From Patescibacteria group bacterium (lineage in GTDB: Bacteria; Patescibacteriota; Microgenomatia; UBA1400; MFAQ01), in assembly GCA_943355005.1 (NCBI GenBank), contig CALRDV010000001.1, positions 15,410-79,409 of the forward strand: a stretch of 64,000 bases of DNA, given 5' to 3'. A program made the translations under genes and the position numbers. Of the stretch, positions 1,992-62,980 are shown piece after piece. Positions within the stretch are counted from its first letter, which is position 1. Every line of letters starts with the position of its first letter. The notes beneath the pieces were generated by a model, which was given only the letters and a program-made list of their open reading frames with translations, was not told where the DNA came from and ran no database searches.

Positions 1992-2025
1992 GTCATTCCC
2001 GACCTGATCGGGAATCTATAAAAAT
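1992..2025 (+). repeat. Hairpin repeat GTCATTCCCGACCTGATCGGGAATC + TATAAAAAT box, 13 bp upstream of nusA ATG
   Basis: 8-bp stem ATTCCCGA/TCGGGAAT, loop CCTGA. Same element recurs upstream of rnj, rpoC, rpsG, rplX, adk. Confidence 0.9.
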
Positions 2026-2037
2026 AAGTTCAACAAA

Positions 2038-3243
2038 ATGGATACACAAACCCTTACCGCCCGTACCGAATTTGCCGCTGCTATCAATCAAATCTGCTCC
2101 GAACGTGGCATTTCCCCTGAAATCGTTTTAAACGCTATTAACGGTGCCTTGGTAGCCTCATTCAAGAAGGATTACCCTGAGCAAGCTCTCAAATTTGAGG
2201 AAGAGGAGCTCATTGTCTCCGCCGATGTAGACTCAGAAAACGGTCAATTCCGCCTCTTTGTTGGCAAGGAAGACGCAAAGAAGAAAGATCTGAAGGAAAT
2301 TACCCCTCCAGGATTTGGACGAATCGCCGCCCAAGCCGCCAAGCAAGTCATCCTCCAAACCATCCGCGAAGCCGAGCGTGAGGCTGTTCTCTCTGAATAC
2401 ACCGACCACTTGGGTGAAGTTATGACCGGTATGGTCCAGCGTATGGACGGTCGCAGTGTCGTCATCGATCTTGGCCGTGGTCAAGCAGTCATGCCTCCCG
2501 AAGAGCAAGTTCGCACCGAATTCTATCGTCTTAACTCTCGTGTCAGTGTCTATCTAAAAGAAATTACCGAAACGGTCAAAGGCAAGCAGATTATCTGTTC
2601 CAGAGCCGACGACAGATTACTCGCTGGACTTTTCCAGAGAGAAGTTCCTGAAGTTAGTTCCGGCGCCGTCCTCATCAAAGCCATTGCTCGCGAGCCGGGT
2701 TCCCGCTCAAAAGTTGCCGTTGAGTCCACTCAAGCAGGTGTTGATCCTGTCGGTTCTTGTGTCGGCCAAAAAGGCGTCCGCGTCCAAGCCGTCATCAATG
2801 ATCTAAACAACGAAAAAATCGACATTATTCAATGGTCTGAAGATAAAGATAAATTTATTAAATCTGCCTTAGCTCCCGCAGAAGGACTAAGTATCTCCTT
2901 CGATCGCAGATCCGGCGAAACTACCATTACTGTTCCTGCAGATCAGCTTTCTTTAGCAATTGGCCGAGGTGGTCAAAACGTCAAGCTTGCTGCTAAGCTC
3001 ACAGGCACTAAACTTCGTATTGTTTCCGAACAAGCTTCTCCTGAGTCGGCCATCGTCGTCACAGGCACCGAAGAATACGAAATCGATCAGCTCGACTTGG
3101 AAACCAAAGCCAGAAACACTTTGGTCGAAGCCGGACTCACTCACATTGAAGATCTTACAGAAGAAAAGTTGGACTCGGTCAAAGGCATCGGCCCCAAAAC
3201 TCTTGAGAAAATCAAGATCCAGCTCGCTTCATACAAAAGCTAA
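2038..3243 (+). CDS. nusA: transcription termination/antitermination factor NusA
   Basis: 401 aa, N-terminal NusA domain, S1 and KH regions (…GQKGVRVQAV…), followed by infB. Confidence 0.9.
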   Translation: MDTQTLTARTEFAAAINQICSERGISPEIVLNAINGALVASFKKDYPEQALKFEEEELIVSADVDSENGQFRLFVGKEDAKKKDLKEITPPGFGRIAAQAAKQVILQTIREAEREAVLSEYTDHLGEVMTGMVQRMDGRSVVIDLGRGQAVMPPEEQVRTEFYRLNSRVSVYLKEITETVKGKQIICSRADDRLLAGLFQREVPEVSSGAVLIKAIAREPGSRSKVAVESTQAGVDPVGSCVGQKGVRVQAVINDLNNEKIDIIQWSEDKDKFIKSALAPAEGLSISFDRRSGETTITVPADQLSLAIGRGGQNVKLAAKLTGTKLRIVSEQASPESAIVVTGTEEYEIDQLDLETKARNTLVEAGLTHIEDLTEEKLDSVKGIGPKTLEKIKIQLASYKS

Positions 3244-3252
3244 TTAAATCCT

Positions 3253-4728
3253 ATGTCAGAAAACATTTCGGCCACAAGACCGCCTGTGGTTACTATTCTT
3301 GGGCATGTAGACCATGGCAAGACATCACTTTTGGATCGTATCCGCCACGCTCAAGTAGCCGCCGGTGAAATTGGTGGTATCACTCAAGCCATAGGTGCAT
3401 ATCAAATCGAGCATAAAGGTCAAAAAATTACATTTATTGACACTCCTGGTCATGCCGCTTTTTCTGCCATGCGACGTCGAGGTGGTCAGGCAGCTGATGT
3501 TGCCATTCTTCTTGTCGCCGCCGACGACTCGGTCATGCCCCAAACAATTGAATCCATTGAACATATAAAAGCCGCCGGTATTCCTTTTGTCGTTGCTGTT
3601 AATAAGGTTGATTTGCCTGGGGTAAATCCCGATCGAGTTAAAACGGATTTGGCCAATAATGGCGTCTATGTCGAGGGCTACGGCGGTAATATTCCTTTGA
3701 TAAACATTTCTGCGAAGTCAGGTTCTGGCGTGGATGACCTTCTTGAAATTATTTTACTTTTAGCTGAACTTGAAGAGTTAAAAGATAATTCATCTGAATC
3801 TCCATCAACCGCTCTGGTTATCGAATCTTCCTTACACCCACAAATTGGTCCTCTTGCTACTCTTTTGGTTAAGTCCGGAGTCTTCAAAAAAAACAGCAAC
3901 TTATTTTTTGGAAAAAAAAATATCGGAAAAATTCGTTCCATGATCGATTACACTGGTAAAGCTATTCCTCAAGCCGGTCCATCCACTCCATTCCAGGTGA
4001 TTGGGCTCTCCGATGTTCCTAGTGTGGGAGATATTCTTACCGACATTTCTGTCATCCCGAGCGTAGTCGAGGGATCTCACTCCACCCCGTCATTGCGAGG
4101 AGGCGAAGGCGACGTGGCAATCCAGGATAACTCGGAAGTAACTCCGGGAGTAGTGATTGAGACCAAGCCAATGTCCGAAAGACCAACCATTTTATTAAAA
4201 GCCGACGTCCAAGGTTCTTTGGAAGCTATCTTGGGAGCCATCAAAGATCAAGCCAATATTGTTTACTCTGCAGTCGGAAATATTTCCGACACAGATATTC
4301 AGACAGCTTACGCCGCAGGTGCCGAGATTCTTGGTTTTAATGTCCGCATTTCCAGCTCAGTTACCAAGCTAGCCGAAATTGAAAAGGTTAAATTCACCAA
4401 TTTCCGTATCATCTATCAGCTCTTTGATTATTTAAAGGATCTTCAGGCGAAAAAAACCATTGCCCAAGGTCCAAAAATTATAGAAACCGGTCAAGCTACA
4501 GTTCTTAAAGTATTCAATTTTGGCGGGACAATGGTTTATGGTTGTTTGGTTACTTCGGGCAAAATAAAATTTGGAGACAAAATTCAAAACTCTCGAATTT
4601 CTACCCTAAAAATAAATAAAGCCGATGTTTCCGAAGCCAAAAAGGATCAAGAGTTTGGGGCCACTTTGACACCCTCTATTGACTTTAAGCCCGGTGATAT
4701 AATGACGGCTACTACTATAGAAGCCTAA
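3253..4728 (+). CDS. infB: translation initiation factor IF-2 (short form lacking the N-terminal domains)
   Basis: [17 protein letters not shown]1 motif, DTPGH, NKVD. 491 aa, so the N-terminal region typical of bacterial IF2 is absent. Confidence 0.92.
   Translation: MSENISATRPPVVTILGHVDHGKTSLLDRIRHAQVAAGEIGGITQAIGAYQIEHKGQKITFIDTPGHAAFSAMRRRGGQAADVAILLVAADDSVMPQTIESIEHIKAAGIPFVVAVNKVDLPGVNPDRVKTDLANNGVYVEGYGGNIPLINISAKSGSGVDDLLEIILLLAELEELKDNSSESPSTALVIESSLHPQIGPLATLLVKSGVFKKNSNLFFGKKNIGKIRSMIDYTGKAIPQAGPSTPFQVIGLSDVPSVGDILTDISVIPSVVEGSHSTPSLRGGEGDVAIQDNSEVTPGVVIETKPMSERPTILLKADVQGSLEAILGAIKDQANIVYSAVGNISDTDIQTAYAAGAEILGFNVRISSSVTKLAEIEKVKFTNFRIIYQLFDYLKDLQAKKTIAQGPKIIETGQATVLKVFNFGGTMVYGCLVTSGKIKFGDKIQNSRISTLKINKADVSEAKKDQEFGATLTPSIDFKPGDIMTATTIEA
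4051..4126 (+). repeat. Two adjacent hairpin-repeat elements embedded in-frame in infB (encode SVIPSVVEGSHSTPSLRGGEGDVAIQ)
   Basis: GTCATCCCGAGCGTAGTCGAGGGATCTCACTCC + CCCCGTCATTGCGAGG...GTGGCAATCCAGG. The same modules occur intergenically elsewhere. The insertion lies in the IF2 linker preceding the conserved ILLKADVQGS. Confidence 0.8.
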
Positions 4729-4730
4729 CT

Positions 4731-5696
4731 ATGGACGATCAAAATCAATTTTCCTCATCCAAAAAACTGATCCAGTCAGCCAGCTCGTTAATTGTTGCTC
4801 TTCCGCCGGATCCTTCTTCTGATATTGTTTCTGCTGGACTAAGTCTTCATCTTTCTTTTATCGCTTCAGGTAAGAAATCTCAAATCGGCTGCGGTACTCA
4901 AGTTCATGTCGATCCTAAACTGGTCGGAGCTCAGGAGATTGCTGATAGTATCGGAGCCAAAAATCTAGTCATTTCCTTTGATTATCACGAAGATGATTTG
5001 GAAAAAGTGGACTACGATGTCCGCCCCGATGGTAAGTTCTATCTTATGATCAAGCCAAAAGCCGGTGCCCCCACCCCTGATGTCAGCAACGTCAAATATT
5101 CCTACTCCGGCGCCTCAGCAGACCTGGTCATAACTCTAGGCATTAATTCTCTTGAAGAACTCGGCAAGATTTATGCCGATGAAAAAAACTTCTTAGATGA
5201 AGCCAAAATCCTTAGTTTAAATATCACTCCTAGGCCGGTGCAATTCACCAAAAATCTCCTTCATCAGTCAGCCAATTCTTTTTCCGAGCTGGTTTCCGAA
5301 CTCGTTGAGAAAACAGAGCTGAAAATTTCCGGAGATTCAGCCAAAAATCTACTTAGCTCTATTTACGAAGAAACCAAAAGTTTGACCAGTCCAAAGATGA
5401 CCGCTAACACTTTTTCTTCCATTTCCTTCCTTATGAGGAATGGAGCCAGGCTTCCAAATCAGCAAGCCTTTGTTCCTAGATTTTCCCAACCAACTTTCTT
5501 TGAAGCCCCTCACGCCCCCTCTGTCATTCCGACCGAAGTGGAGGAATCTCAAACCACCAACATAAGTGACGACGACAACGTTCCCATGCCCCAGGAGGAG
5601 AACAAGCCCTACGTCATTCCTCCATCGAACCTGCCAAACCAGAACGTCCCAAATGACTGGACCAAGCCCAAAATCTTCCGCGCTGGCGACCTCTAA
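4731..5696 (+). CDS. hypothetical protein, possibly degenerate DHH/NrnA-like phosphoesterase (catalytic DHH motif not conserved)
   Basis: N-terminal LIVALPPDPSSDIVSAGL resembles DHH motif I (hxxPDxDxxGS). Later DLVITLG and LMIKPKAG sit where DHH would be. Pro-rich C-terminus. Occupies the rbfA/nrnA slot after infB. Confidence 0.35.
   Translation: MDDQNQFSSSKKLIQSASSLIVALPPDPSSDIVSAGLSLHLSFIASGKKSQIGCGTQVHVDPKLVGAQEIADSIGAKNLVISFDYHEDDLEKVDYDVRPDGKFYLMIKPKAGAPTPDVSNVKYSYSGASADLVITLGINSLEELGKIYADEKNFLDEAKILSLNITPRPVQFTKNLLHQSANSFSELVSELVEKTELKISGDSAKNLLSSIYEETKSLTSPKMTANTFSSISFLMRNGARLPNQQAFVPRFSQPTFFEAPHAPSVIPTEVEESQTTNISDDDNVPMPQEENKPYVIPPSNLPNQNVPNDWTKPKIFRAGDL
5523..5550 (+). repeat. Hairpin repeat (GTCATTCCGACCGAAGTGGAGGAATCTC) in-frame inside CDS 4731-5696 (encodes VIPTEVEES)
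   Basis: Same family termini GTCATTCC...GGAATC. Read in the same frame (GTC ATT CCG = VIP) as the infB copy. Confidence 0.7.
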
Positions 5697-11414: not shown

Positions 11415-11442
11415 GTCATTCCGGGCTTGACCCGGAATCCAG
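11415..11442 (+). repeat. Hairpin repeat variant GTCATTCCGGGCTTGACCCGGAATCCAG
   Basis: Stem ATTCCGGG/CCCGGAAT with compensatory changes relative to the ATTCCCGA/TCGGGAAT copies. Confidence 0.85.
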
Positions 11443-12853: not shown

Positions 12854-12887
12854 GTCATTCCCGACCTGATCGGGAATCTATATAAAT
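12854..12887 (+). repeat. Hairpin repeat GTCATTCCCGACCTGATCGGGAATC + TATATAAAT
   Basis: Identical core to the 1992 copy. Confidence 0.9.
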
Positions 12888-16542: not shown

Positions 16543-16695
16543 CATGCTATAATTACCACCAGTCCACGGAATCGTTGTCCAGTGATATGAGAGTTTATAT
16601 AGAATCAGTTAGATTTTAACCTCCAGTCAGAGAAACTTTACCCGTAAATTAGGATTTTGGCGCCTTTCCTCGCCCAAACTGAATAAGACAATCAT

Positions 16696-16729
16696 GTCAT
16701 TCCCGACCTGATCGGGAATCTATAAAAAT
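16696..16729 (+). repeat. Hairpin repeat GTCATTCCCGACCTGATCGGGAATC + TATAAAAAT, ~60 bp upstream of rnj
   Basis: Identical core. Confidence 0.9.
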
Positions 16730-16788
16730 AGTTACTGTTGATTCTCATTCAGTTACAATATTATTAGGAAAATTAATTACAAAAAATT

Positions 16789-18444
16789 ATGTCTCAACTT
16801 AAGTTGATTCCTCTCGGTGGTGTTGGTAGTGCAACTAAAAACATGTACGTTTACGAATTTGGTGATGACCAGCTGGTCATCGACTGCGGTATGGGTTTCC
16901 CTCAAAGCAGTGATCTGGGTGTGGATTCCGTCATTCCCGATATTAGTTATCTGGAAAAATCCGGTAAACATTTACTCGGTATTGTCCTTACCCATCCTCA
17001 CATGGATCATATTGGCGGTCTTCCTTACATCCTTCCTCGTCTCAAAGACGTCGAAGTTTTTGGTGGCAAGCTTGCTATCGCCATGGCCGAGCTCCGAGTT
17101 CGCGAATTTGGAATTACCAATCGTATGACCCCGGTCGAAGGCTCACTAGACCTTGGACCCTTCCATATCGAATTCATACACTCCACTCATTCGGTTCCAA
17201 ACTGTTTTCATTTAGTCATCAAGACTCCGGCCGGTACCGTTTATCATGGTGCTGACTACAAGTTCGATCTAACCCCTATCGATAATCTTCCACCCGATAT
17301 GGCCGGAATGGCCGCTGCCGGAACTGCCGGTGTCGATCTTATGTTCACCGACTGTTTGGGAATTGAGAAATCGGGCTACTGTCCATCAGAAAGAACTTTA
17401 ATGAAAGCTATAGACGATGAAATTAGAAATACTCAAGGTAAGGTTATCTTTACCGGCATGTCTTCTTCAATTTCTCGTTTCCAGATTGCCATCGAGGCTT
17501 CTATTAAGCATCACCGTCGAGTCGCCATTATTGGTCGCTCGGTAGAACAGAATATCGAAGCCGCCATTAAAACCGGTTTCTTAAAAGTTCCCGCCGGAAC
17601 TTTTATCAAGCCGCAGCAAATCGCCGGACTTCAGGCCAAAGAAGTTACGATGCTTGTTTCCGGTTCACAAGGTCAGTCTGGTTCCGCTATGCATCGCTTG
17701 GCTAACAATGAACACCGCTTGGCTCGTCTGAAGAAAGGTGACAAAGTCATCATTAGTTCGAATGCAATTCCGGGTACCGGCAACGATGCCGATATCTTTG
17801 ATCTCATGGACACTCTCTACAAAAATAGTATCGATGTTATCTACTCAGGCACTTCAGAGAACCTTCACGTTTCCGGCCACGGCTATCGAGGTGATATGGC
17901 TCTCTTGGCTCGCTTAGTTCGTCCCAAATACATTATCCCAATTGGTGGAGATCTCCGTCACATGATGCTTTACAAAAATAGTTTGGCCAAAGATCTTAAT
18001 CACAACAGAGATAACGTCTTTGTCCTCTCAGAAGGACAGTCTGTCATTCTTGAAGATCACGTCGTCAAAGAAGGTCCCAAGTTCGAGACCAAAAATATTT
18101 ATGTTGATGGTCTGGGTATTGGAGATGTCGGTACTGTCGTTCTCCGTGATCGTCAGGTTATGTCCGAAGACGGTATTCTTATCGCCATCGTTCCTGTCAA
18201 ACGGGAAAACTCTCAAGTCACCGGTGACGTCGAAGTTATTTCTCGAGGCTTTGTCTACCAGAAAGAATCTCAAGATCTTATTCGCGACGCCCGCAATCAA
18301 GTCCAGCTTTGTTTCAAAGACAACAAGGGACCTGTCACTGACTGGGGCTTCTTACGCAAGAAGATAGAAGGCCAGCTGGAGAAGTTCGCTTTCGAACACA
18401 CCCAGCGCAGGCCACTTGTTATAGCGATTTTGATCGAGGTATAA
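16789..18444 (+). CDS. rnj: ribonuclease J (metallo-beta-lactamase/beta-CASP)
   Basis: HPHMDHIGG motif. 551 aa with beta-CASP and C-terminal domain. Confidence 0.9.
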   Translation: MSQLKLIPLGGVGSATKNMYVYEFGDDQLVIDCGMGFPQSSDLGVDSVIPDISYLEKSGKHLLGIVLTHPHMDHIGGLPYILPRLKDVEVFGGKLAIAMAELRVREFGITNRMTPVEGSLDLGPFHIEFIHSTHSVPNCFHLVIKTPAGTVYHGADYKFDLTPIDNLPPDMAGMAAAGTAGVDLMFTDCLGIEKSGYCPSERTLMKAIDDEIRNTQGKVIFTGMSSSISRFQIAIEASIKHHRRVAIIGRSVEQNIEAAIKTGFLKVPAGTFIKPQQIAGLQAKEVTMLVSGSQGQSGSAMHRLANNEHRLARLKKGDKVIISSNAIPGTGNDADIFDLMDTLYKNSIDVIYSGTSENLHVSGHGYRGDMALLARLVRPKYIIPIGGDLRHMMLYKNSLAKDLNHNRDNVFVLSEGQSVILEDHVVKEGPKFETKNIYVDGLGIGDVGTVVLRDRQVMSEDGILIAIVPVKRENSQVTGDVEVISRGFVYQKESQDLIRDARNQVQLCFKDNKGPVTDWGFLRKKIEGQLEKFAFEHTQRRPLVIAILIEV

Positions 18445-18732: not shown

Positions 18733-18760
18733 GTCATTCCGGACCTGATCCGGAATCCAG
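18733..18760 (+). repeat. Hairpin repeat variant GTCATTCCGGACCTGATCCGGAATCCAG
   Basis: Stem ATTCCGGA/TCCGGAAT (compensatory). Confidence 0.85.
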
Positions 18761-18762
18761 TA

Positions 18763-19023
18763 CTACATAAATTCAGATAAATCATCCCATTCTGGATTCA
18801 TCTTTTCAATTGCATCTAGCTTCCATTTTCTCTTCCAATTCTTCAATTGTTTTTCTCTCGCAATTGCCTCCATTGCTGATTCATACTCCTCAAAATATAC
18901 CAAGTCGTGTACAGAATATCTTTTAGTAAAACCATCAACGATATCAGACTTATGTATGGAAATTCTAGTAGCTAAGTTATATGTAACTCCCACATAAAGT
19001 GTTCCATTTCTATGATTCGTCAA
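18763..19023 (-). CDS. GIY-YIG nuclease-domain protein. The annotated start is TTG; the conserved KKYFVYILTN N-terminus lies in-frame upstream (to 19053) with no ATG/GTG
   Basis: ...NGTLYVGVTYNLATRISIHKS...REKQLKNWKRKWK. The upstream in-frame codons encode DINTKKYFVYI. Either a nonstandard start or a decaying gene. Confidence 0.6.
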   Translation of the reverse strand: MTNHRNGTLYVGVTYNLATRISIHKSDIVDGFTKRYSVHDLVYFEEYESAMEAIAREKQLKNWKRKWKLDAIEKMNPEWDDLSEFM

Positions 19024-19064
19024 TATGTATACAAAATATTTCTTCGTGTTTATATCTTATTATT

Positions 19065-19340
19065 TTTTCTGGATTCCGGGTCAAGCCCGGAATGACAATT
19101 AGAATTTGTTTGTTCAAAATATTACCCGTCATGCCGGACCTGATCCGGCATCCAGTAGTTTAAGTATTCAATACGAACTTACGTTTTCTGGATTCCGGGT
19201 CAAGCCCGGTATGACAATTAGAATTTGTTTGTTCAAAATATTACCCGTCATGCCGGACCTGATCCGGCATCCAGTAGGTTAAGTATTCAATACTAACTTA
19301 CGTTTTCTGGATTCCGGGTCAAGCCCGGAATGACAATGAG
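19065..19340. mobile_element. MITE-like composite element, 119-bp unit tandemly repeated 2.3 times
   Basis: Each unit holds CTGGATTCCGGGTCAAGCCCGGAATGAC ... GTCATGCCGGACCTGATCCGGCATCCAG, i.e. 28-bp imperfect terminal inverted repeats that are themselves members of the hairpin family. Units are ~97% identical (period 19065/19184/19303). Confidence 0.8.
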
Positions 19341-19367
19341 CACATTAGATATATAATGAATTCACAT

Positions 19368-22460: not shown

Positions 22461-22836
22461 TAAACCAAAGCAAGACGGTTCTTTTTCTTCCTTTACTGTG
22501 GGAGTAGCTCTTGGTGTCATGGGAGCCTTACTCTTTGGCACTGAGGAGGGTCGCAGCATCGTCAAAAAAGTCATCAGCGCCGTACCGGAGAAGTATAAAC
22601 GCCCCATTCCCACTTCCCTTCGCAATTTAGTCAACCCTCCCACACCGTCATTGCGAGGTACTCCGTGGCAATCTAGCTTATCAACCACCCCCGTCATCCC
22701 CACAGAAGAAACTCAGCACCACACCACTTTCGCATACAGCAGTCCCTTTGGCGAAGCAATCGCTGGCGAAGCTCCGCCTCCTCCTGCTCCCCACGTCCGG
22801 CCCACCCTCTCCGAACCCTTCCACCCGAATTCCTAA
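22444..22836 (+). CDS. YtxH/DUF948-like membrane protein with Pro-rich tail containing an in-frame hairpin repeat
   Basis: FTVGVALGVMGALLFGTEEGRSIVKK resembles the YtxH motif. The tail carries PSLRGTPWQSSL, encoded by a repeat element. Confidence 0.45.
   Translation: MTTPSDKPKQDGSFSSFTVGVALGVMGALLFGTEEGRSIVKKVISAVPEKYKRPIPTSLRNLVNPPTPSLRGTPWQSSLSTTPVIPTEETQHHTTFAYSSPFGEAIAGEAPPPPAPHVRPTLSEPFHPNS
22647..22677 (+). repeat. Hairpin repeat GTCATTGCGAGGTACTCCGTGGCAATCTAGC inside CDS 22444-22836
   Basis: Encodes PSLRG..., the same peptide as the infB-embedded copy (TPSLRGGEG). Confidence 0.75.
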
Positions 22837-22841: not shown

Positions 22842-22903
22842 GTCATTCCGACCGAACGAAGTGAGTGGAGAAATCTCCCTCCACCCGTCATTGCGGGGTT
22901 TGG
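22842..22903 (+). repeat. Two adjacent hairpin-family elements (GTCATTCCGACCGAACGAAGTGAGTGGAGAAATCTCCCTCC; CCGTCATTGCGGGG...)
   Basis: Shared modules CTCCCTCCACCC + CGTCATTGCG seen at 4078, 43815, 44706. Confidence 0.75.
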
Positions 22904-23044
22904 ATATTTTTACGTTTAACGATTCATCCCTCGAGGATTAATTGTTAAACAAAGTTATAAAAAATATCCAAACATGCCGTAGCCAATTTCGTAACGAACT
23001 TGGCTAGGCCGGGTATACATCGGCCGTGGCAATCCAGGCAATCT

Positions 23045-23072
23045 GTCATTCCGGGCTTGACCCGGAATCCAT
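23045..23072 (+). repeat. Hairpin repeat GTCATTCCGGGCTTGACCCGGAATCCAT
   Basis: Same as the 11415 copy. Preceded by CCGTGGCAATCCAGGCAATCT fragments. Confidence 0.85.
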
Positions 23073-30000: not shown

Positions 30001-30016
30001 TATTTTATATCACTCG

Positions 30017-30116
30017 TCATTGCGAGCGGTAGCGTGGCAATCCAGGTATTGTCATTCCCGACCTGATCGGGAATCCATCCCCTCCAGTCATTCGAGCGGT
30101 AGCGTGGCAATCTACC
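30017..30116 (+). repeat. Cluster of three hairpin-family elements (GTCATTGCGAGCGGTAGCGTGGCAATCCAG / GTCATTCCCGACCTGATCGGGAATC / GTCATTCGAGCGGTAGCGTGGCAATCTACC)
   Basis: Between divergent genes. Copies a and c are ~90% identical. Confidence 0.9.
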
Positions 30117-35642: not shown

Positions 35643-35667
35643 GTCATTCCCGACCTGATCGGGAACC
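35643..35667 (+). repeat. Hairpin repeat GTCATTCCCGACCTGATCGGGAACC + TATACAAAT, 28 bp upstream of rpoC
   Basis: Same family. Confidence 0.9.
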
Positions 35668-39865: not shown

Positions 39866-39899
39866 GTCATTCCCGACCTGATCGGGAATCCATAAAAAT
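39866..39899 (+). repeat. Hairpin repeat GTCATTCCCGACCTGATCGGGAATC + CATAAAAAT, between rpsL and rpsG
   Basis: Same family. Confidence 0.9.
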
Positions 39900-43771: not shown

Positions 43772-43804
43772 GTCATTGCGAGCGCTGCGCGGCAATCTAC
43801 CTGC
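43772..43804 (+). repeat. Hairpin repeat GTCATTGCGAGCGCTGCGCGGCAATCTACCTGC
   Basis: Same GTCATTGCGAG...GGCAATCTACCTGC family as 30017/30087. Confidence 0.85.
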
Positions 43805-43821
43805 TATAAAACTTCTCCCTC

Positions 43822-43850
43822 CACCCCGTCTAAACAGCGGGGTTTTTATT
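43822..43850 (+). terminator. Rho-independent terminator
   Basis: CCCCG-tctaaacag-CGGGG-TTTTTATT. Confidence 0.75.
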
Positions 43851-43930
43851 GGCCTATAGTTGATTTACACCCCAGTTTTTGATAGAATACCCCAAAGTTT
43901 AACTCTTTAATAACTAAATGGAGGTGACCC

Positions 43931-44671: not shown

Positions 44672-44713
44672 GTCATTGCGAATCTCGTACTCGAGCTGTG
44701 GCAATCTCACTCC
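44672..44713 (+). repeat. Hairpin repeat GTCATTGCGAATCTCGTACTCGAGCTGTGGCAATCTCACTCC
   Basis: Near-identical to the 62948 copy. Contains the nested palindrome CTCGtaCTCGAG. Confidence 0.85.
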
Positions 44714-44716
44714 ACC

Positions 44717-44746
44717 CACCCCGTCTAACCAACGGGGTTTTATTTT
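44717..44746 (+). terminator. Rho-independent terminator
   Basis: CCCCG-tctaaccaa-CGGGG-TTTTATTTTATT. Confidence 0.75.
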
Positions 44747-44747
44747 A

Positions 44748-45041
44748 TTAACACATATCGGCCACCATCGGCATCACCTCAATGCACGGCGTTCCCCAGC
44801 TATGATTCTTCAGAATAAATTCATGTATATCTGTCAATTTAATTTTGGTCGTCTTCAAACTAATCAAAACCACTTCTTCCCCCGAAGCCCCCTTCGGTCC
44901 CGGATACATAAGGAATGTGGGTGTAATCTTCGCCGTGCCACACAGTTCTTTATCCAGCATCTCTTTACAAAGTTTCTCTGCCTCTTTCTTGGTCGGGCAG
45001 GGGATATTGATAACCACCGGATCCATATCACTTATATTCAT
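44748..45041 (-). CDS. cutA: CutA1-like divalent-cation tolerance protein (PII-like fold)
   Basis: ...CGTAKITPTFLMYPGP..EEVVLISLKTT....HSWGTPCIEVMPM parallels the CutA pattern (C..i.p.i.siY.WkG...EeevllllKT...HpYEvPEiialpi). Confidence 0.55.
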   Translation of the reverse strand: MNISDMDPVVINIPCPTKKEAEKLCKEMLDKELCGTAKITPTFLMYPGPKGASGEEVVLISLKTTKIKLTDIHEFILKNHSWGTPCIEVMPMVADMC

Positions 45042-53930: not shown

Positions 53931-53964
53931 GTCATTCCCGACCTGATCGGGAATCTATATAAAT
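53931..53964 (+). repeat. Hairpin repeat GTCATTCCCGACCTGATCGGGAATC + TATATAAAT inside the spc operon, 20 bp upstream of rplX
   Basis: Identical core. Confidence 0.9.
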
Positions 53965-57451: not shown

Positions 57452-58168
57452 ATGCCCAGTTATGTCGAAAAATTTCGCTTAGACCATCTAATATCCATGC
57501 TCAGACAGGCTCGTGGAGATATTTTTGCCATCATCTCGGCAATCGCCGAGTATGAGCTTTGGCACCAGGACTACCTTGAGCGCAATGCTCAGGCCGCTTC
57601 CGTACGGAAGCAGTATCTTCAAGGTTTCGAAGAAGATATGGCTCAGTTGACCCGTGCCGACTTTCAGCACCCCACGGCGGGGACTCACGCCGTAGATGGC
57701 CAATTGGCTGTTGGTGGAGAGTCTGAACTTGATGGGTTTGATCTTCTCCAGCCAATTAAGGGTGATCGTGTTCCGAATCCAGATTACCCGGAATCCTGCA
57801 GTATTGGGTCAGATGGATGGACGGCAGCTGCGTTTTCGGGGCGGACTCCTCGTATCGTCCCATTCGATTCCGAGAACGATGATGTGTGGGAGATGGAGGA
57901 GCCAGCTGAAGATGTAGATTGGGACGAGCTTGCCTTTGTCTTTAGGCAGGTTGGTTTCGACACAAGACAGCTGTACGGCATCACCAACATCTCTGATATC
58001 CATATCGATTATCATCGGCGCGGTCTCGCTGTACTCCCAAAGGGCGCACGTCACAATTCACCTCTCGGTCGCGAAACCTGGGAAGATCGGTTTGTCGCTG
58101 AGATACGTGAAAGCGCATCGAAAAACAACTGGCACCCCTGGCTGATCGGCACCAACTTGTTCGAATGA
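57452..58168 (+). CDS. cassette B1: hypothetical acidic protein (238 aa)
   Basis: SD AAGGAGGG 57440-57447, 4 nt before the ATG. The ORF-track N-extension is discarded. Confidence 0.6.
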   Translation: MPSYVEKFRLDHLISMLRQARGDIFAIISAIAEYELWHQDYLERNAQAASVRKQYLQGFEEDMAQLTRADFQHPTAGTHAVDGQLAVGGESELDGFDLLQPIKGDRVPNPDYPESCSIGSDGWTAAAFSGRTPRIVPFDSENDDVWEMEEPAEDVDWDELAFVFRQVGFDTRQLYGITNISDIHIDYHRRGLAVLPKGARHNSPLGRETWEDRFVAEIRESASKNNWHPWLIGTNLFE

Positions 58169-58175
58169 TCCCAAA

Positions 58176-58205
58176 CCACACCCTAACCGGTGTGGTTTTT
58201 ATTTT
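58176..58205 (+). terminator. Rho-independent terminator
   Basis: CCACACC-ctaacc-GGTGTGG-TTTTTATTTT. Followed by TATAAT (58211-58216) ATCCTAGAACATT. Confidence 0.8.
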
Positions 58206-58260
58206 AGTAGTATAATATCCTAGAACATTGTAATTCTATCTATTGCTTAGGAGGCAACTT

Positions 58261-58683
58261 ATGTTTAGTTTAAGTCTGTTGGGAACGGCCACAGACAATC
58301 ATTCGGCTTACCTGGTTCGACCAGGAATGATGAACGGCGCCTTACATTTCTTTCATGAAATTAAGTGGGTCGAGTTCGAAGGGCTGAGGGTGAACGGAGA
58401 TTGGGGACAAGCCAGGTTTGTTTCTTCGAATATTGTCGGCAGTCATATCTATCAGCTGACCGAATTAACATCCGAAGATCCGGAGAAGCTCGAGATGACC
58501 GAGTTCCACATCGCCATCCACTTCTCATCCGCCACCCCCCAAGAAGCCTCTGAGGCTATATTGGACTGGGCAATTCACTCTGGCGCCAGTGAAGGCGCCA
58601 CCATTGAACCGGCCAACGCAGAAGGAACCAAATGGTTCATATGTTTACCGGCATTGTTCAAGTTCAGTCTCGAGATCGTCTAA
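58261..58683 (+). CDS. cassette B2: hypothetical protein (140 aa), possibly VOC/glyoxalase-like fold
   Basis: SD AGGAGG 58249-58254. The VOC resemblance (…GTKWFICLP..FKFSLEIV) is weak. Confidence 0.55.
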   Translation: MFSLSLLGTATDNHSAYLVRPGMMNGALHFFHEIKWVEFEGLRVNGDWGQARFVSSNIVGSHIYQLTELTSEDPEKLEMTEFHIAIHFSSATPQEASEAILDWAIHSGASEGATIEPANAEGTKWFICLPALFKFSLEIV

Positions 58684-58686
58684 TTC

Positions 58687-58718
58687 AAATCCACTCTATA
58701 TAGGGTGGATTTTTATTT
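58687..58718 (+). terminator. Rho-independent terminator
   Basis: ATCCAC-tctatatagg-GTGGAT-TTTTATTTT. Followed by TATAAT (58726-58731) ACCCCAGAACGTT. Confidence 0.8.
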
Positions 58719-58778
58719 TCTGATGTATAATACCCCAGAACGTTTCTAGAAAAACAACACTTTGAAATCGGAGGAAAT

Positions 58779-59162
58779 ATGAGCTTTACACCCCAAAATG
58801 CTTTAGGGAAAGCAAATTCTAATTTACAGGGAACCGAATTTTTTCTTGGAGCCAAAAGAGCACTCGGTGAAAAATTTACTAAAGCCGATGTCTTTATCCT
58901 CCTTATTGCACGAATTAAGGAAATTTTAAGCTTTAAGGATGGTCGGGATGAAAAATGGCTGGGCATGTTAAAAGATGCAATCAATCAAAACATGACCTCG
59001 GCGCTGAAGGAATATTTATCAAATCAGATAGAATATCTTCGAACATCCAATCCTGATTACGAAATATTGATCTTGACTCCTGCACTTGTAAGCCTTTCTT
59101 TTAGTTCAAATTTAGATCCATATCTTCTTCTCGGACTAGAAGAGTTCTACAAAACCCTCTAG
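58779..59162 (+). CDS. cassette B3: hypothetical protein (127 aa)
   Basis: SD GGAGG 6 nt upstream. Confidence 0.55.
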   Translation: MSFTPQNALGKANSNLQGTEFFLGAKRALGEKFTKADVFILLIARIKEILSFKDGRDEKWLGMLKDAINQNMTSALKEYLSNQIEYLRTSNPDYEILILTPALVSLSFSSNLDPYLLLGLEEFYKTL

Positions 59163-59167
59163 GCACT

Positions 59168-59196
59168 CGCCCACCTTCACCGGTGGGTTTTTTATT
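59168..59196 (+). terminator. Rho-independent terminator
   Basis: CCCACC-ttcacc-GGTGGG-TTTTTTATT. Followed by TATAAT (59205-59210) ATCCCAGAACATT. Confidence 0.8.
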
Positions 59197-59242
59197 ATGG
59201 GTGTTATAATATCCCAGAACATTAAATTAAGGAGGTTAGATA

Positions 59243-59611
59243 ATGGAAACCATAGAAACGATCCAATTTGTTATTGAGCTCATTGGCAGTGTATTTAAGA
59301 TTGTTCAGATGGCAATTCATCTGGTTTTTGTCGGCATCGTTACTCTATTCCGTCCCGGTTCCGATAAAGAGTGGCGCCAGGCATGGATGTGGGTTGTCTT
59401 CCCGGTATTTTTTGTGGGAGGCTTCGGCATCCTCGTCTCATGGTTAATCCACTACATATTTGCTTTGCTGGGATTTACTCTTCTGGGTTGGATTCTGATA
59501 TTGATCTGGCTATTTTACTTTTGGGTTGGTGAGCCATTTATGTATATTACCTACCCGGAGTATGAAATTAACCGCGAGGAGAAATCTCATTGGATCGACA
59601 CCGGCGAATAA
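59243..59611 (+). CDS. cassette B4: small membrane protein (122 aa, 3 TM)
   Basis: SD AAGGAGG. Co-transcribed with B5 (no terminator between them). Confidence 0.55.
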   Translation: METIETIQFVIELIGSVFKIVQMAIHLVFVGIVTLFRPGSDKEWRQAWMWVVFPVFFVGGFGILVSWLIHYIFALLGFTLLGWILILIWLFYFWVGEPFMYITYPEYEINREEKSHWIDTGE

Positions 59612-59627
59612 ATCTCTGGAGGTAAAA

Positions 59628-60074
59628 ATGTTCAAATCTCTTAGTGAACAGATCGACGATGCACTTGCAAACCTTACGATACTTGAACTTCGTATCGGTC
59701 ACGCACGTCAATCTGGGACAATGCTTACGAAAGAAAAATTGTTTGAGTACTTGATGGCCTGGGCTAATTATCGTAATTTCTTTGCTCTTTCGCATTACCG
59801 CCATGAATCAAAATGGAGTGGCATTATTCTCGATTGCCAAGCAAAGATCATGACCCAACAGTTAAAGGACTTTCTCAAAGAAATCAAAGATAATCTCGAA
59901 GCTCGCATCCCACCTACCGAAAGAATCGTTTTGGGGTACAAACCAATCGATGTTCTTCACCCTCTCCCGGCCGCCATTTCCGTTAGCAACATACTAGTTG
60001 AAAACGAAAAGCTATTTACGACTTTGCCACTCCTACTGTTGGCACTTATCGAAATATCTGACTCCAACACATAG
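59628..60074 (+). CDS. cassette B5: hypothetical protein (148 aa)
   Basis: SD GGAGGT 59618-59623. Internal start chosen from the longer ORF 59526. Confidence 0.5.
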   Translation: MFKSLSEQIDDALANLTILELRIGHARQSGTMLTKEKLFEYLMAWANYRNFFALSHYRHESKWSGIILDCQAKIMTQQLKDFLKEIKDNLEARIPPTERIVLGYKPIDVLHPLPAAISVSNILVENEKLFTTLPLLLLALIEISDSNT

Positions 60075-60100
60075 CCCACCACCCGGTGGGTTTTTTTGTT
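60073..60100 (+). terminator. Rho-independent terminator
   Basis: CCCACC-accc-GGTGGG-TTTTTTT. Followed by TACAAT (60100-60105). Confidence 0.8.
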
Positions 60101-60138
60101 ACAATTTCAGTGAACTTTCAAATTTAGATTGGAGACAC

Positions 60139-60483
60139 ATGATTACTCATGTCAAAATTAGAGCACCTTTCGACCACGTTGACGGACAGACTTTTTATGT
60201 CACACCGGAATTAAAAGAAAAAATATTTATTCTTGGTGCAACTCTCGTGCTTGATCACAACAATTTTTGTATGATTACGCCTGAGGGTGAAGTGGTAAGA
60301 ACAAAGTGGACCGTAGTCGAAGTTATTTCCGACAGACCTACCGGCTACAATGATCGCAAAATGGTTCGAGATATCGTAGGTGGCTTAATAGCTGTTAGTT
60401 CCATCGGACGAGCTTCTTGGGGACAAATATCTATAAAATTCTTTGAAGGGTTGGTTTTTTTCAACGAAGAAGAGGTTGTTTAG
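60139..60483 (+). CDS. cassette B6: hypothetical protein (114 aa)
   Basis: SD GGAGA 5 nt upstream. Internal start of ORF 59998. Confidence 0.5.
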   Translation: MITHVKIRAPFDHVDGQTFYVTPELKEKIFILGATLVLDHNNFCMITPEGEVVRTKWTVVEVISDRPTGYNDRKMVRDIVGGLIAVSSIGRASWGQISIKFFEGLVFFNEEEVV

Positions 60484-62193: not shown

Positions 62194-62226
62194 GTCATTC
62201 CGACCGTAGTGGAGGAATCTCACTCC
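62194..62226 (+). repeat. Hairpin repeat GTCATTCCGACCGTAGTGGAGGAATCTCACTCC right after the secY stop
   Basis: Same as the 5523 and 22842 copies. Confidence 0.85.
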
Positions 62227-62249
62227 AAATATTAAAATTTTAATTAAGT

Positions 62250-62283
62250 GTCATTCCCGACCTGATCGGGAATCTATATAAAT
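62250..62283 (+). repeat. Hairpin repeat GTCATTCCCGACCTGATCGGGAATC + TATATAAAT, 10 bp upstream of adk
   Basis: Identical core. Confidence 0.9.
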
Positions 62284-62292
62284 TAATTCACT

Positions 62293-62862
62293 ATGAACAT
62301 AATCATTCTCGGACCCCAAGGGTCAGGCAAAGGCACACAGGCAAAGTTATTAGCCGAAAAATACGGCTTAACGAATATTTCTTCAGGTAAACTCCTCCGT
62401 GAATTTGCCAAAGGCGACTCTGAGAAAGCCAAGCTGATTGCCGATCTTCTCACTACCGGGGCACTTCTTCCTTTCGACACTGTCATGGAAGTCATTGAAC
62501 CCGCTATGGTTGGATCCAAATCTGGCTTTATTCTGGACGGTAGTCCAAGAGATCTTATGCAAGCCGAATATCTTGATTGGTTTTTGGGCGAGCGCCACAT
62601 TACTATTGATAAAGTCATTCATATCGATATTCCTCGTGAGGAAAGTTTAAATCGGCTGGCCAAAAGAGCCATCACTGAAAATCGTTCCGACGATACCCCG
62701 GATGCTATTCACGAAAGATTGGATATTTACGAGAAAGATACTATGCCTGTCATAGACTACTATCGCAAGCAAGGCAAAATGATCGATGTCGACGGCGTTG
62801 GTGAAGTCCCAGAGATTTTTAACGCCATCATCTCCAAGCTCGAAGTGTCATCCCGAGCGTAG
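62293..62862 (+). CDS. adk: adenylate kinase. Last five codons and stop (VSSRA*) are supplied by a hairpin repeat
   Basis: IIILGPQGSGKGTQAK P-loop. No zinc-lid Cys. Element GTCATCCCGAGCGTAG overlaps 62847-62862. Confidence 0.93.
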   Translation: MNIIILGPQGSGKGTQAKLLAEKYGLTNISSGKLLREFAKGDSEKAKLIADLLTTGALLPFDTVMEVIEPAMVGSKSGFILDGSPRDLMQAEYLDWFLGERHITIDKVIHIDIPREESLNRLAKRAITENRSDDTPDAIHERLDIYEKDTMPVIDYYRKQGKMIDVDGVGEVPEIFNAIISKLEVSSRA

Positions 62863-62980
62863 TTCCATAGATACCCCGAAGAGGGTACGAGGGATCTCAC
62901 GCTATTGTCATTCCGGGCTTGACCCGGAATCCAGTCATTAATTATCCGTCATTGCGAATGTACTCATGTGGCAATCTAGG
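62847..62980 (+). repeat. Three contiguous hairpin-family elements (62847-62902, 62907-62934, 62948-62980)
   Basis: GTCATCCCGAGCGTAG...GGGATCTCACGC; GTCATTCCGGGCTTGACCCGGAATCCAG; GTCATTGCGAATGTACTCATGTGGCAATCTAGG. Confidence 0.9.

What the first reader, a model, noticed from the sequence alone, without database searches (positions are those of the whole stretch)
1992..62980. Large family of GTCAT...AATC hairpin repeats with compensatory stem changes (REP/RPE-like)
At least 22 copies in 64 kb share the termini GTCAT[TC][CG]C ... G[GC][GA]AATC. Stem sequences differ between copies but stay complementary: ATTCCCGA/TCGGGAAT, ATTCCGGG/CCCGGAAT, ATTCCGGA/TCCGGAAT, CATGCCGGA/TCCGGCATC, ATTGCGAG.../...GGCAAT. 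That points to selection on a DNA/RNA secondary structure rather than on a protein-binding sequence. Sub-families carry nested internal palindromes and recurrent flanking modules (CTCCCTCCACCCC, CAATCTACCTGC). They occur singly, in clusters of three (30017-30116; 62847-62980) and as a tandem composite (19065-19340).
Basis: seen in the sequence. Interest (0 to 1): 0.75.

Follow-up and report, generated by a model that had tools for sequence, protein, structure and literature searches.

The report
Hairpin target sites of Ssn nuclease
The GTCAT…ATC hairpin repeats are real and belong to a family described in 2025: sites that fold in single-stranded DNA and are recognised by a small GIY-YIG nuclease (Ssn), whose gene lies in this window; here they have multiplied in a Candidatus Collierbacteria (CPR) genome, nearly all on one strand and some in frame inside essential genes.

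Summary
The window holds 30 copies of GTCAT-hairpin-ATC, 27 on the + strand and 3 on the - strand. They are far more frequent than chance, and their stems show true compensatory changes.

They are not a new kind of element. They match the NTS/SRM repeats of Chenal et al. 2025 (Nat Commun 16:2388). Those are oriented ssDNA hairpins bound and cut by SsnA, a 94-aa single-domain GIY-YIG nuclease.

The window encodes an Ssn homologue at 18766-19053 on the - strand. It is 52% identical to the Neisseria gonorrhoeae SsnA orthologue and keeps the catalytic Tyr, Tyr and Glu residues. It sits in the arrangement that is commonest at ssn genes: an SRM upstream in the gene's orientation and an inverted SRM downstream.

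The host is a Candidatus Collierbacteria (Patescibacteria) genome.

Four features go beyond the paper:
- Strand polarity is near-absolute: 29:0 outside the ssn locus, and 24:2 in relatives.
- Copies are inserted in frame in infB, lepA and a hypothetical gene, and one copy supplies the stop codon of adk.
- Orthologous sites are filled in some relatives and empty in others.
- The ssn gene has ACG where its homologues have ATG.

The mechanism (strand-specific ssDNA binding and cleavage) is inferred from homology, not tested here. Verdict: a new member of a known kind, of moderate interest.

The parts
18766..19053 (-). ssn homologue: a single-domain GIY-YIG nuclease of about 95 aa. It has no canonical start codon: ACG sits where homologues have ATG, ATA lies two codons upstream, and an internal TTG at 19023 would remove the first catalytic Tyr.
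   Evidence: Pfam GIY-YIG scores 62.7 bits. The protein is 52% identical (E 3e-31) to the 94-aa N. gonorrhoeae SsnA orthologue, with Y6, Y17 and E64 aligned. An independent assembly has the identical sequence. The gene caller did not call this ORF.
18733..19096 (.). IS-like ssn cassette: SRM (+) 18733-18757, ssn (-), SRM (-) 19072-19096. The GTCAT heads face outward. In the gene's frame this is a co-oriented copy upstream and an inverted copy downstream.
   Evidence: The same arrangement is found in 33 of 46 metagenomic ssn loci that have both flanks (binomial p 4e-11). The RNase J-FtsK spacer is 28 nt in relative L129 but 912 nt here.
19065..19337 (.). Tandem composite: 2.3 copies of a 119-nt unit made of type B (-), a spacer, type A2 (+) and a second spacer. 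Copies are at 19072-19096 (-), 19128-19152 (+), 19191-19215 (-, variant GTCATACC), 19247-19271 (+) and 19310-19334 (-).
   Evidence: A comparable 92-nt composite of two SRM subtypes lies next to ssn in another Collierbacteria genome (L133).
1992..2016 (+). Type A SRM, GTCATTCCCGACCTGATCGGGAATC with a TATAAAAATAA tail, 21 nt upstream of the nusA start.
4051..4076 (+). Type C SRM inside infB, in frame.
   Evidence: IF2 is 491 aa here and mostly 457-476 aa in the Collierbacteria orthologues listed (a few are 484-501 aa).
4089..4122 (+). Type D SRM inside infB. Together with the 4051 copy it adds about 25 codons to the linker between domains.
5523..5548 (+). Type C SRM in frame inside hypothetical gene 4731-5696. 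Relative L128 shares it (44/44 nt identical, flanks about 78%); L129 and L131 lack it.
11415..11439 (+). Type B SRM, GTCATTCCGGGCTTGACCCGGAATCCAG, between convergent genes.
12854..12878 (+). Type A SRM lying between two - strand genes, yet still in + orientation.
16696..16720 (+). Type A SRM 68 nt upstream of the RNase J gene. The site is filled in L128 and empty in L129 and L131.
22647..22673 (+). Type D SRM.
22842..22875 (+). Type C SRM, long form.
22887..23034 (+). Type D SRM arms enclosing about 120 nt of nested palindromic insertions.
   Evidence: the 196-nt stretch 22880-23075, which also holds the neighbouring type B copy, folds at -50.4 kcal/mol, z -8.5
23045..23069 (+). Type B SRM.
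30016..30042 (+). Type D SRM, first of a cluster of three.
30051..30075 (+). Type A SRM, second of the cluster of three.
30087..30112 (+). Degenerate type D SRM (GTCATT-CGAGCGG...GGCAATC), third of the cluster of three.
35643..35667 (+). Type A variant ending GGGAACC, in the rpoB-rpoC spacer.
39866..39890 (+). Type A SRM in the rpsL-rpsG spacer, 17 nt before the S7 start.
43772..43797 (+). Type D SRM.
44672..44706 (+). Type D SRM with a nested CTCGTACTCGAG palindrome.
53931..53955 (+). Type A SRM in the L14-L24 spacer. L135 has a type C copy at the same site and L134 a decayed copy.
62194..62219 (+). Type C SRM just after secY.
62250..62274 (+). Type A SRM 18 nt before the adk start.
62847..62896 (+). 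Type C SRM with a loop insertion. It overlaps the 3' end of adk and supplies its last 5 codons and its stop codon.
62907..62931 (+). Type B SRM.
62948..62976 (+). Type D SRM upstream of the methionine aminopeptidase gene.

Best explanation
These are Ssn-related motifs (SRM, also called NTS-like repeats). Each is a short oriented palindrome that folds into a hairpin when its top strand is single-stranded. The hairpin is then recognised by a small GIY-YIG endonuclease of the Ssn family.

That nuclease is encoded in this window at 18766-19053 on the - strand, in an IS-like cassette flanked by inverted SRMs. By homology with Neisseria SsnA, the protein should bind the hairpin through the palindrome and the C that follows it. 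It should nick the same strand a few nucleotides 5' of the conserved GTC. It should not act on dsDNA, RNA or the complementary strand.

In this Candidatus Collierbacteria lineage the sites have multiplied recently to about 35 copies in 80 kb, in several sub-families that differ by compensatory stem changes. They lie almost only on the strand that carries most genes. They land between cistrons and in variable linkers of proteins, where they are read through in frame.

Shown here: identity with the family, the cognate gene and its cassette architecture, covariation, filled versus empty orthologous sites, and strand polarity. Inferred: the biochemical activity on these variants, how copies spread, and what the system does for the cell. 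The likeliest roles are control of incoming or exposed ssDNA (for example in transformation and recombination) or selfish spread.
For: - Sequence match to the family: the published NTS is CGTCATTCCCGCGMAVGCGGGAATCYRG, and type B here is TGTCATTCCGGGCTTGACCCGGAATCCAG. The two share GTCATTCC, GGAATC and YRG.
- The invariant GTC and 3' C are the positions critical for SsnA cleavage and binding.
- The published degenerate SRM pattern finds 28 sites with one substitution, against 5.5 +/- 2.5 in shuffles. Of those, 17 are curated copies.
- The window ORF is a complete GIY-YIG domain. It is 52% identical to the 94-aa gonococcal SsnA orthologue, which is embedded in 16 NTS copies within 3.3 kb. Y6, Y17 and E64 are conserved.
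- SRMs flank the ORF 8 nt after its stop and 18 nt before its start.
- 64 of 73 metagenomic ssn loci have an SRM within 150 nt. Among loci with both flanks, 33 of 46 have the same arrangement as here, a co-oriented copy upstream and an inverted copy downstream (p 4e-11).
- The exact 25-mer family occurs in at least 120 loci from very diverse phyla.
- The stems covary strongly.
- Presence differs between relatives. The syntenic 21 kb holds 0 copies in L129, 1 in L131, 7 in L128 and about 15 here. The ssn cassette is absent from the RNase J-FtsK spacer of L129, and ssn sits at a different locus in L133.
Against: - No biochemistry was done. Specificity of this Ssn for any of the four sub-types is inferred.
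- In the paper, altered palindromes abolished cleavage by the Neisseria enzyme, so one enzyme may not serve all sub-types.
- The exact published SRM pattern matches no copy in the window.
- The C and D types form weak hairpins, and none was seen as an immediate flank of an ssn gene.
- The ssn gene lacks a canonical start codon in two independent assemblies, so it may be poorly expressed or inactive.
- Only about 80 kb of the genome could be read, so other ssn paralogues may exist.
- The near-absolute strand polarity is not predicted by the published model and is absent in other phyla.
Confidence: 0.8

Rival explanations
1. The repeats act mainly at the RNA level. Because they lie in sense orientation between cistrons of long operons, they would form mRNA hairpins. 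These could protect upstream cistrons from 3' exonucleases, mark processing sites, or tune translation of the next gene, as REP elements do in E. coli. The link to Ssn would then be secondary.
For: - All 29 copies outside the ssn locus are on the strand that carries 84% of the genes.
- Several lie in short spacers inside operons: rpoB-rpoC, S12-S7, L14-L24 and secY-adk.
- Type A carries a conserved A-rich tail, TATAWAAATAA. In four cases the copy ends 17-21 nt before the start codon.
- The copy in the hypothetical gene is identical over 44 nt between two genomes whose flanks are about 78% identical.
Against: - The copy at 12854 lies between two - strand genes and is still in + orientation. Other copies sit between convergent genes.
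- The conserved unpaired GTC and C and the strict sequence of the outer stem are explained by protein recognition of DNA, not by a generic RNA hairpin.
- No SRM is scored as an intrinsic terminator, and promoter-like sites occur at chance level.
- No Rfam family matches.
- In other phyla the same elements show no orientation bias relative to genes.
- SsnA does not bind RNA.
Confidence: 0.12
2. They are REP/REPIN-type or IS200/IS605-type miniature elements mobilised by an HUH Y1 transposase (RAYT or TnpA). The GIY-YIG gene would be a bystander.
For: The anatomy is similar: a short conserved 5' head, a hairpin, solo copies, inverted pairs and mosaics. A one-strand bias is known for ssDNA transposition of the IS200/IS605 family (own knowledge; the Ssn paper draws the same analogy).
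Against: - The head is GTCAT, not GTAG.
- No Y1 transposase domain appears among the Pfam hits of the called genes across about 80 kb.
- The gene that co-occurs with these hairpins and is flanked by them, here and in 64 of 73 other loci, is ssn.
- At the cassette ends the hairpins are inverted relative to each other. In IS200/IS605 both ends lie on one strand.
Confidence: 0.03
3. It is a chance motif or an assembly artefact.
For: Nearly all database hits are metagenome-assembled genomes, and some copies sit at contig ends.
Against: - Enrichment is 4- to 5-fold over shuffles.
- An independent assembly gives identical sequence.
- Copies lie in the interior of closed long-read chromosomes and in an isolate genome.
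- Copies are abundant in N. gonorrhoeae chromosomes.
- Contig breaks at repeats are expected.
Confidence: 0.01

Closest known systems
NTS/SRM repeats with the Ssn (SsnA) GIY-YIG site-specific ssDNA nuclease (Chenal et al. 2025, Nat Commun 16:2388, PMC11893778)
   Same: - Oriented hairpin with the GTCAT head and ATC(YRG) tail.
- Cognate single-domain GIY-YIG gene of about 95 aa, 52% identical to the Neisseria orthologue.
- SRM-ssn-SRM cassette.
- Hundreds of dispersed copies, clusters and mosaics.
- Loops that tolerate insertions.
   Different: - The stem interior and loop differ: an 8-bp stem with a CYTGA loop, so the palindrome is ATTCCC-N9-GGGAAT. The exact published SRM pattern does not match.
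- The host is a CPR bacterium, a group the paper does not mention (the word Patescibacteria is absent from its text).
- Strand polarity is near-absolute.
- About 7 of 35 copies are inside ORFs or overlap them, against 2% reported for N. meningitidis.
- Four sub-families coexist, and two of them (C and D) fold weakly.
- The ssn gene lacks a canonical start codon.
Neisseria dRS3 repeats and NIME mosaic arrays
   Same: The palindrome core is ATTCCC...GGGAAT. Arrays alternate repeats with short spacer modules, as in the 119-nt composite and the C-TCTCACTCCACCCC-D modules.
   Different: dRS3 is defined as ATTCCC-N8-GGGAAT, whereas type A here has N9 and the other types have different cores. In the one Neisseria locus examined both orientations are mixed. 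dRS3 is also a phage integration target, which was not examined here.
REP/BIME elements and REPINs with RAYT transposases; IS200/IS605
   Same: Short extragenic palindromes with a conserved unpaired head. They are recognised as ssDNA hairpins by a small nuclease gene that is itself flanked by the repeats. IS200/IS605 shows strand bias linked to replication.
   Different: The enzyme fold is different (GIY-YIG, not HUH Y1). The head is GTCAT, not GTAG. Transposition by Ssn has never been shown.
Rickettsia palindromic elements (RPE)
   Same: Palindromic repeats inserted in frame into conserved protein genes, adding peptide segments in tolerant loops. The Ssn paper lists Rickettsia among the SRM-rich genera.
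   Different: RPEs are about 100-150 bp. Sequence relationship to the copies here was not tested.

Membership tests
Ssn/SRM system | The repeat is an oriented hairpin with a conserved GTC immediately 5' of the palindrome and a C immediately 3' of it. | tested here: met
   All 30 copies carry GTCAT and all but one (35643, GGGAACC) the 3' ATC; the outer stem pairs A-T and T-A sit next to them. The paper names these positions as critical.
Ssn/SRM system | Match to the published degenerate SRM search pattern HGTCWYN(0-2)YYVSBRHN(0-5)WNVSBRGN(0-2)RNCYNB. | tested here: not met
   There are 0 exact matches. With one substitution there are 28 matches against 5.5 +/- 2.5 expected, including 17 curated copies. 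The copies are therefore close variants just outside the published pattern.
Ssn/SRM system | The genome encodes a single-domain GIY-YIG protein of about 94 aa homologous to SsnA (paper's criterion: E < 1e-10). | tested here: met
   Pfam GIY-YIG scores 62.7 bits, with no other domain. tblastn to an N. gonorrhoeae chromosome gives E 1e-21. Pairwise comparison gives 52% identity, E 3e-31. Assignment to CDD cd10448 itself could not be checked.
Ssn/SRM system | Catalytic residues are conserved (Y6, Y17 and E64 of SsnA). | tested here: met
   They align with Y9, Y20 and E67 of the window protein. R30, H34 and N86 are also invariant among homologues.
Ssn/SRM system | The ssn gene is flanked by its repeats on both sides. 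| tested here: met
   SRMs lie 18 nt upstream and 8 nt downstream. The arrangement matches 33 of 46 other loci.
Ssn/SRM system | The ssn gene is intact and expressed. | tested here: inconclusive
   The ORF is complete, but ACG replaces the ATG of homologues, and the same is true in a second assembly. The gene caller did not call it.
Ssn/SRM system | The protein binds and cuts the repeat only as ssDNA, only on the top strand, a few nucleotides 5' of GTC. | not testable with these tools
   This needs purified protein and oligonucleotides.
Neisseria dRS3 | ATTCCC-N8-GGGAAT | tested here: not met
   Type A is ATTCCC-N9-GGGAAT. Types B, C and D have other cores.
REP/RAYT (REPIN) | A GTAG head and an associated Y1 (HUH) transposase gene. 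| tested here: not met
   The head is GTCAT. No Y1_Tnp domain appears among the Pfam hits of the called genes across about 80 kb, but only part of the genome was visible.
Intrinsic terminators | A G+C-rich hairpin followed by a T run. | tested here: not met
   No SRM is among the 31 terminator-like sites, and the tails are A-rich or CAG.
Known structured RNAs (Rfam) | A match above the gathering score. | tested here: not met
   There are 0 matches in 64 kb.
RPE-like in-frame insertion behaviour | Palindromic repeats read through in frame inside conserved protein genes. | tested here: met
   This is seen in infB, lepA and hyp321, and at the adk stop codon. It is a shared behaviour, not a test of sequence membership.

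The most novel reading that the evidence does not exclude
In Collierbacteria the Ssn-SRM system may be an active ssDNA-based mobile element driven by a GIY-YIG nuclease. Its insertions, or their survival, would be tied to one DNA strand, either of the replication fork or of transcription. That would account for three things: the 53:2 strand polarity; the repeated re-occupation of the same intergenic sites by different sub-types; and the colonisation of linkers in essential proteins. Ssn would then be a transposase-like enzyme of a fold not known to move such elements, with inverted hairpin ends nicked at the 5' side of each strand.
Probability: 0.2. Interest if true: 0.7.

Novelty: new member of a known kind. 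Interest (0 to 1): 0.4.

Why it matters
Ssn nucleases and their hairpin sites were described only in 2025. Their biology outside Neisseria is unknown, and how the repeats multiply is an open question.

This window gives a compact natural example in an ultra-small CPR bacterium. It contains the nuclease cassette, four coexisting site sub-families, and filled and empty orthologous sites in close relatives. It also shows a strand polarity that other phyla lack.

That polarity makes one question directly testable on complete genomes: do the sites follow the replication strand or the direction of transcription?

For annotators, the result explains a common source of spurious or extended ORFs and odd peptide insertions (VIPDLIGN, VIPGLTRN, VIASGSVAI and similar) in genomes assembled from metagenomes.

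Tried and rejected
- Rfam scan of the window: nothing.
- Exact published SRM pattern: no hit. One substitution was needed.
- Promoter idea: type B contains TTGACC and type A ends in TATAAAAAT. Promoter-like sites are at chance level, and no consistent -35/-10 pair falls on the copies. The only strong hit (19330-19357) uses the ATGACA of a reverse copy upstream of ftsK.
- Terminator idea: rejected.
- General polarity of SRMs relative to GC skew or gene direction: 252 copies in 105 loci from other phyla show none (131:121 and 132:120). The polarity is therefore lineage-specific.
- Using GC skew to fix the replication direction: ambiguous. Third-position skew shows the + strand is C-rich whatever the gene strand (replication component -0.29), yet 84% of genes, including the ribosomal operons, are on the + strand.
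- The paper's supplementary files are not held. The Neisseria SsnA sequence had to be recovered from a gonococcal chromosome filed among the plasmids.
- The 326-kb NCBI contig of the same genome could not be fetched. Look-ups returned only the 223-kb contig and a 611-nt contig.
- Target-site duplications: none were evident in the filled versus empty alignments, but at about 78% identity the junctions are fuzzy.
- tblastn of Ssn against the 120 loci found through the repeat: only 2 carry ssn within 8 kb, as expected for dispersed copies.

Full report
**1. The observation**

The motif GTCATYSC occurs 35 times in the window, against 7.9 +/- 2.7 in dinucleotide-preserving shuffles (maximum 14). 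Of the 35 hits, 32 lie on the + strand. Reading every hit with its flanks and scoring hairpins gives 30 genuine copies of GTCAT-palindrome-ATC. The remaining hits are chance matches inside genes.

The copies fall into four sub-types.
- Type A: GTCATTCCCGACCTGATCGGGAATC followed by TATAWAAATAA. Minor forms are A1 (GTCATTCCGGACCTGATCCGGAATC) and A2 (GTCATGCCGGACCTGATCCGGCATC).
- Type B: GTCATTCCGGGCTTGACCCGGAATCCAG.
- Type C: GTCATYCCGASCG.AGTSGAGGRATCTCA, often followed by CTCCACCCC.
- Type D: GTCATTGCGAG...GGCAATCYAG.

The composite has a period of 119 nt, 2.3 copies and 97% match.

The A and B types fold as ssDNA into 8-bp stems with 5-nt loops, at -7.6 to -9.0 kcal/mol and z about -3.5 to -3.8. 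The C and D types have only a 5-bp outer stem and fold no better than shuffled sequence.

The differences among A, A1, A2 and B fall at three stem positions, and all are compensated on the other arm.

For a test less dependent on my own search pattern, I collected every 25-mer matching only GTCAT-N17-ATC from 855 kb of unrelated loci. I left out those that matched the pattern used to fetch the loci. About 26 such 25-mers are expected by chance and remain in the set. The 56 distinct 25-mers found, plus window sub-types, give 59 distinct sequences. Of their stem cells, 82% are paired, against 64% in shuffles. One hundred cells are changed on both sides, against 36 in shuffles, and 0 of 500 shuffles reach the observed values. 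Pairing falls to 21-42% when the partner columns are slid.

**2. What it is**

They come from Campylobacterota, Bacteroidota, Patescibacteria, Chloroflexota, Nitrospirota, Pseudomonadota, Binatia, Armatimonadota and other groups. The same loci hold many further variants, such as GTCATTCCCGCGAAAGCGGGAATC and GTCATCCTGAACTTGTTTCAGGATC.

A full-text search for these strings found Chenal et al. 2025 (Nat Commun 16:2388, PMC11893778). That paper defines the Neisseria Transformation Sequence, CGTCATTCCCGCGMAVGCGGGAATCYRG, which contains the old dRS3 repeat. It also defines the wider class of Ssn-related motifs (SRM). Its main findings are as follows.
- SsnA is a 94-aa single-domain GIY-YIG protein.
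- It binds the hairpin only as ssDNA and only on one strand.
- It cuts a few nucleotides upstream of the hairpin.
- The three nucleotides before the palindrome (GTC) govern cleavage, and the C after the palindrome is the most critical base for binding.
- It does not act on RNA or dsDNA.
- ssnA genes are typically flanked by their repeats, like an insertion sequence.

**3. The cognate gene is in the window**

Between the RNase J and ftsK genes, on the - strand, lies an ORF at 18766-19053. It is a complete GIY-YIG domain and nothing else (Pfam 62.7 bits). The gene caller used for the source contig did not call it.

A tblastn search hit an N. gonorrhoeae chromosome that is filed among the plasmids (E 1e-21). 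The ORF there is 94 aa and has Tyr6, Tyr17 and Glu64, the residues mutated in the paper. It is surrounded by 16 NTS copies in 3.3 kb. The window protein is 52% identical to it (E 3e-31), with all three residues aligned.

The database holds at least 8000 close homologues of 95-98 aa. The nearest ones that carry a name come from Collierbacteria, Gracilibacteria and other Patescibacteria.

The window gene is flanked by an SRM 18 nt upstream in the gene's own orientation and by an inverted SRM 8 nt after the stop. In 73 metagenomic ssn loci with sequence on both sides, 64 have an SRM within 150 nt. Of the 46 with copies on both sides, 33 have exactly this arrangement, where 25% would be expected by chance (p 4e-11).

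One oddity stands out. Where homologues start with ATG, this gene has ACG. The nearest canonical start, an internal TTG, would remove the first catalytic Tyr. An independent assembly from another sample has the identical sequence, so this is not an assembly error.

**4. Host and evolutionary dynamics**

The IF2 and SecY homologues that carry names come mostly from Candidatus Collierbacteria. Ribosomal protein L30 is missing between S5 and L15, and IF2 and AlaRS are short. I know both as typical CPR traits.

Syntenic loci from relatives show filled and empty sites.
- The 21 kb around infB holds 0 copies in L129, 1 in L131, 7 in L128 and about 15 here.
- The RNase J-FtsK spacer is 28 nt in L129 but 912 nt here, where it holds the ssn cassette and its array.
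- In another Collierbacteria genome, ssn lies at a different locus next to a 92-nt tandem composite of two SRM sub-types.
- The site upstream of the RNase J gene is filled here and in L128, and cleanly empty in L129 and L131.
- The same spacers (grpE-dnaK, L14-L24, secY-adk, adk-map) carry different sub-types in different genomes.

**5. Copies inside genes**

- Two copies (types C and D) lie in frame in infB, in the linker between domain II and the IF-2 domain. IF2 is 491 aa here and mostly 457-476 aa in the orthologues listed, a few of which reach 484-501 aa.
- In the 8 kb upstream of the window, two copies add 29 codons to lepA (631 aa against 602 aa).
- One type C copy lies in frame in the acidic C-terminal linker of hypothetical gene 4731-5696. 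L128 shares it, with 44/44 nt identical while the flanks are about 78% identical. L129 and L131 lack it.
- The copy at 62847 supplies the last five codons and the stop codon of adk.
- In L135, copies also lie inside the L22 and L18 genes.

The paper reports only 2% of NTS copies inside genes in N. meningitidis.

**6. Strand polarity**

Outside the ssn locus, all 29 copies in the 80 kb I could assemble are on the + strand. In the relatives the counts are 6:1 (L128), 7:0 (L134) and 11:1 (L135). The ssn locus itself alternates orientations.

Most genes (78 of 93) are on the + strand, so this data set cannot separate polarity relative to transcription from polarity relative to replication. The copy at 12854 lies between two - strand genes and is still in + orientation, which is a single point against a purely transcript-level rule.

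GC skew does not settle the direction of replication. At third codon positions the + strand is C-rich whatever the gene strand. That is the opposite of what the gene-strand bias would suggest.

Across 105 loci from other phyla, SRM copies show no bias relative to skew or gene direction, and 70 of those loci have copies on both strands. The polarity is therefore a property of this lineage. The Ssn paper does not discuss any strand or replication bias.

**7. Mechanism**

The best-supported account is that these are recognition sites for the encoded Ssn nuclease, acting on the top strand when it is single-stranded. The identity of the repeats, the cognate gene, the cassette and the turnover of copies are shown here. 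Three things are inferred: the activity on these variants, the way copies multiply, and the benefit or cost to the cell.

The paper shows that in Neisseria the system restricts incoming ssDNA during transformation. CPR bacteria commonly carry DNA-uptake machinery (my own knowledge), so a similar role is plausible, but it was not tested here.

An RNA-level role in operons may coexist, but it is not needed to explain the conserved features. Terminator and promoter functions are not supported. A REP/RAYT-type system is unlikely: the head sequence differs, and the associated gene is ssn.

The C and D types remain less certain. They share the head and tail and they co-occur with ssn in other contigs. 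However, they fold weakly and were never seen as the immediate flank of an ssn gene.

**8. Verdict**

It is a new member in a CPR host. Its lineage-specific features are strand polarity, frequent in-frame insertions in genes, coexisting sub-families, and a start-less ssn gene. These are worth a targeted follow-up but do not make a new category.

Noticed in passing
window 57452-60483: Six ORFs with no Pfam match sit between the L15 gene and secY, inside the otherwise canonical ribosomal protein operon. Relatives carry different ORFs at the same spot: L134 has three, including a weak Peptidase_M28 hit, and L135 has four, one of them on the opposite strand. The slot appears to be variable.
   Followed up: partly
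whole window plus flanks (about 80 kb): At third codon positions the + strand is strongly C-rich whatever the gene strand (+ genes -0.34; - genes +0.24 on their own coding strand; replication-like component -0.29). Yet 84% of genes, including rpoBC and the ribosomal operons, are on the + strand. The syntenic loci of relatives are also C-rich on that strand (-0.07 to -0.09). Either the skew is reversed in this lineage or the genes are head-on to replication.
   Followed up: partly
window 19045-19053: The ssn homologue has ACG where homologues have the ATG start codon. ATA lies two codons upstream, and there is no Shine-Dalgarno-like sequence. A second sample's assembly has the identical sequence.
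   Followed up: yes
IF2 orthologues P0123, P0126, P0131, P0146 (alignment A2, columns about 270-320): The same IF2 linker in other Collierbacteria contains peptides such as PVGAGLIPPV, VGAIHESP and SSLRGAEDD. These look like translations of other palindromic repeat families, so the linker seems to be a recurrent landing site for repeats.
   Followed up: no
window 22887-23034: A type D copy whose loop holds about 120 nt of further nested palindromes, including a near-perfect hairpin of about 76 nt. The 196-nt stretch 22880-23075 folds at -50.4 kcal/mol (z -8.5). This may be another miniature element inserted into the SRM loop.
   Followed up: partly
window 16600-16790: The leader upstream of the RNase J gene is highly conserved across four Collierbacteria genomes (for example CCCGTAAATTAGGAT-TTTGGCG and CAGTTACAATATTATTAGGAAAATTAATTAC), apart from the SRM insertion. 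It may be a regulatory 5' UTR.
   Followed up: no
window 19330-19357: This is the best sigma-70-like match in the first 20 kb (ATGACA, 16 nt, TATAAT; 11 of 12). Its -35 hexamer is the reverse-complemented GTCAT head of an SRM, and the site ends at the ftsK start codon (19356).
   Followed up: no
window 43820-43860 and 44707-44750: The module CTCCCTCCACCCC (or CTCACTCCACCCACCCC) that follows some SRMs runs into a terminator-like hairpin, CCCCGTCTAA(A/C)CA(G/A)CGGGG followed by a T run, at both places.
   Followed up: no
L078 5493-5705 (Armatimonadota MAG): Five exact type B copies are spaced at a regular 47 nt, forming a tandem array of the SRM itself.
   Followed up: no
P0002 (homologue of the window Ssn): Its called ORF has an N-terminal extension ending in ...LSFPRKRESIQ. 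That is the translation of a reverse-complemented NTS-like repeat, an example of SRMs inflating gene calls.
   Followed up: no
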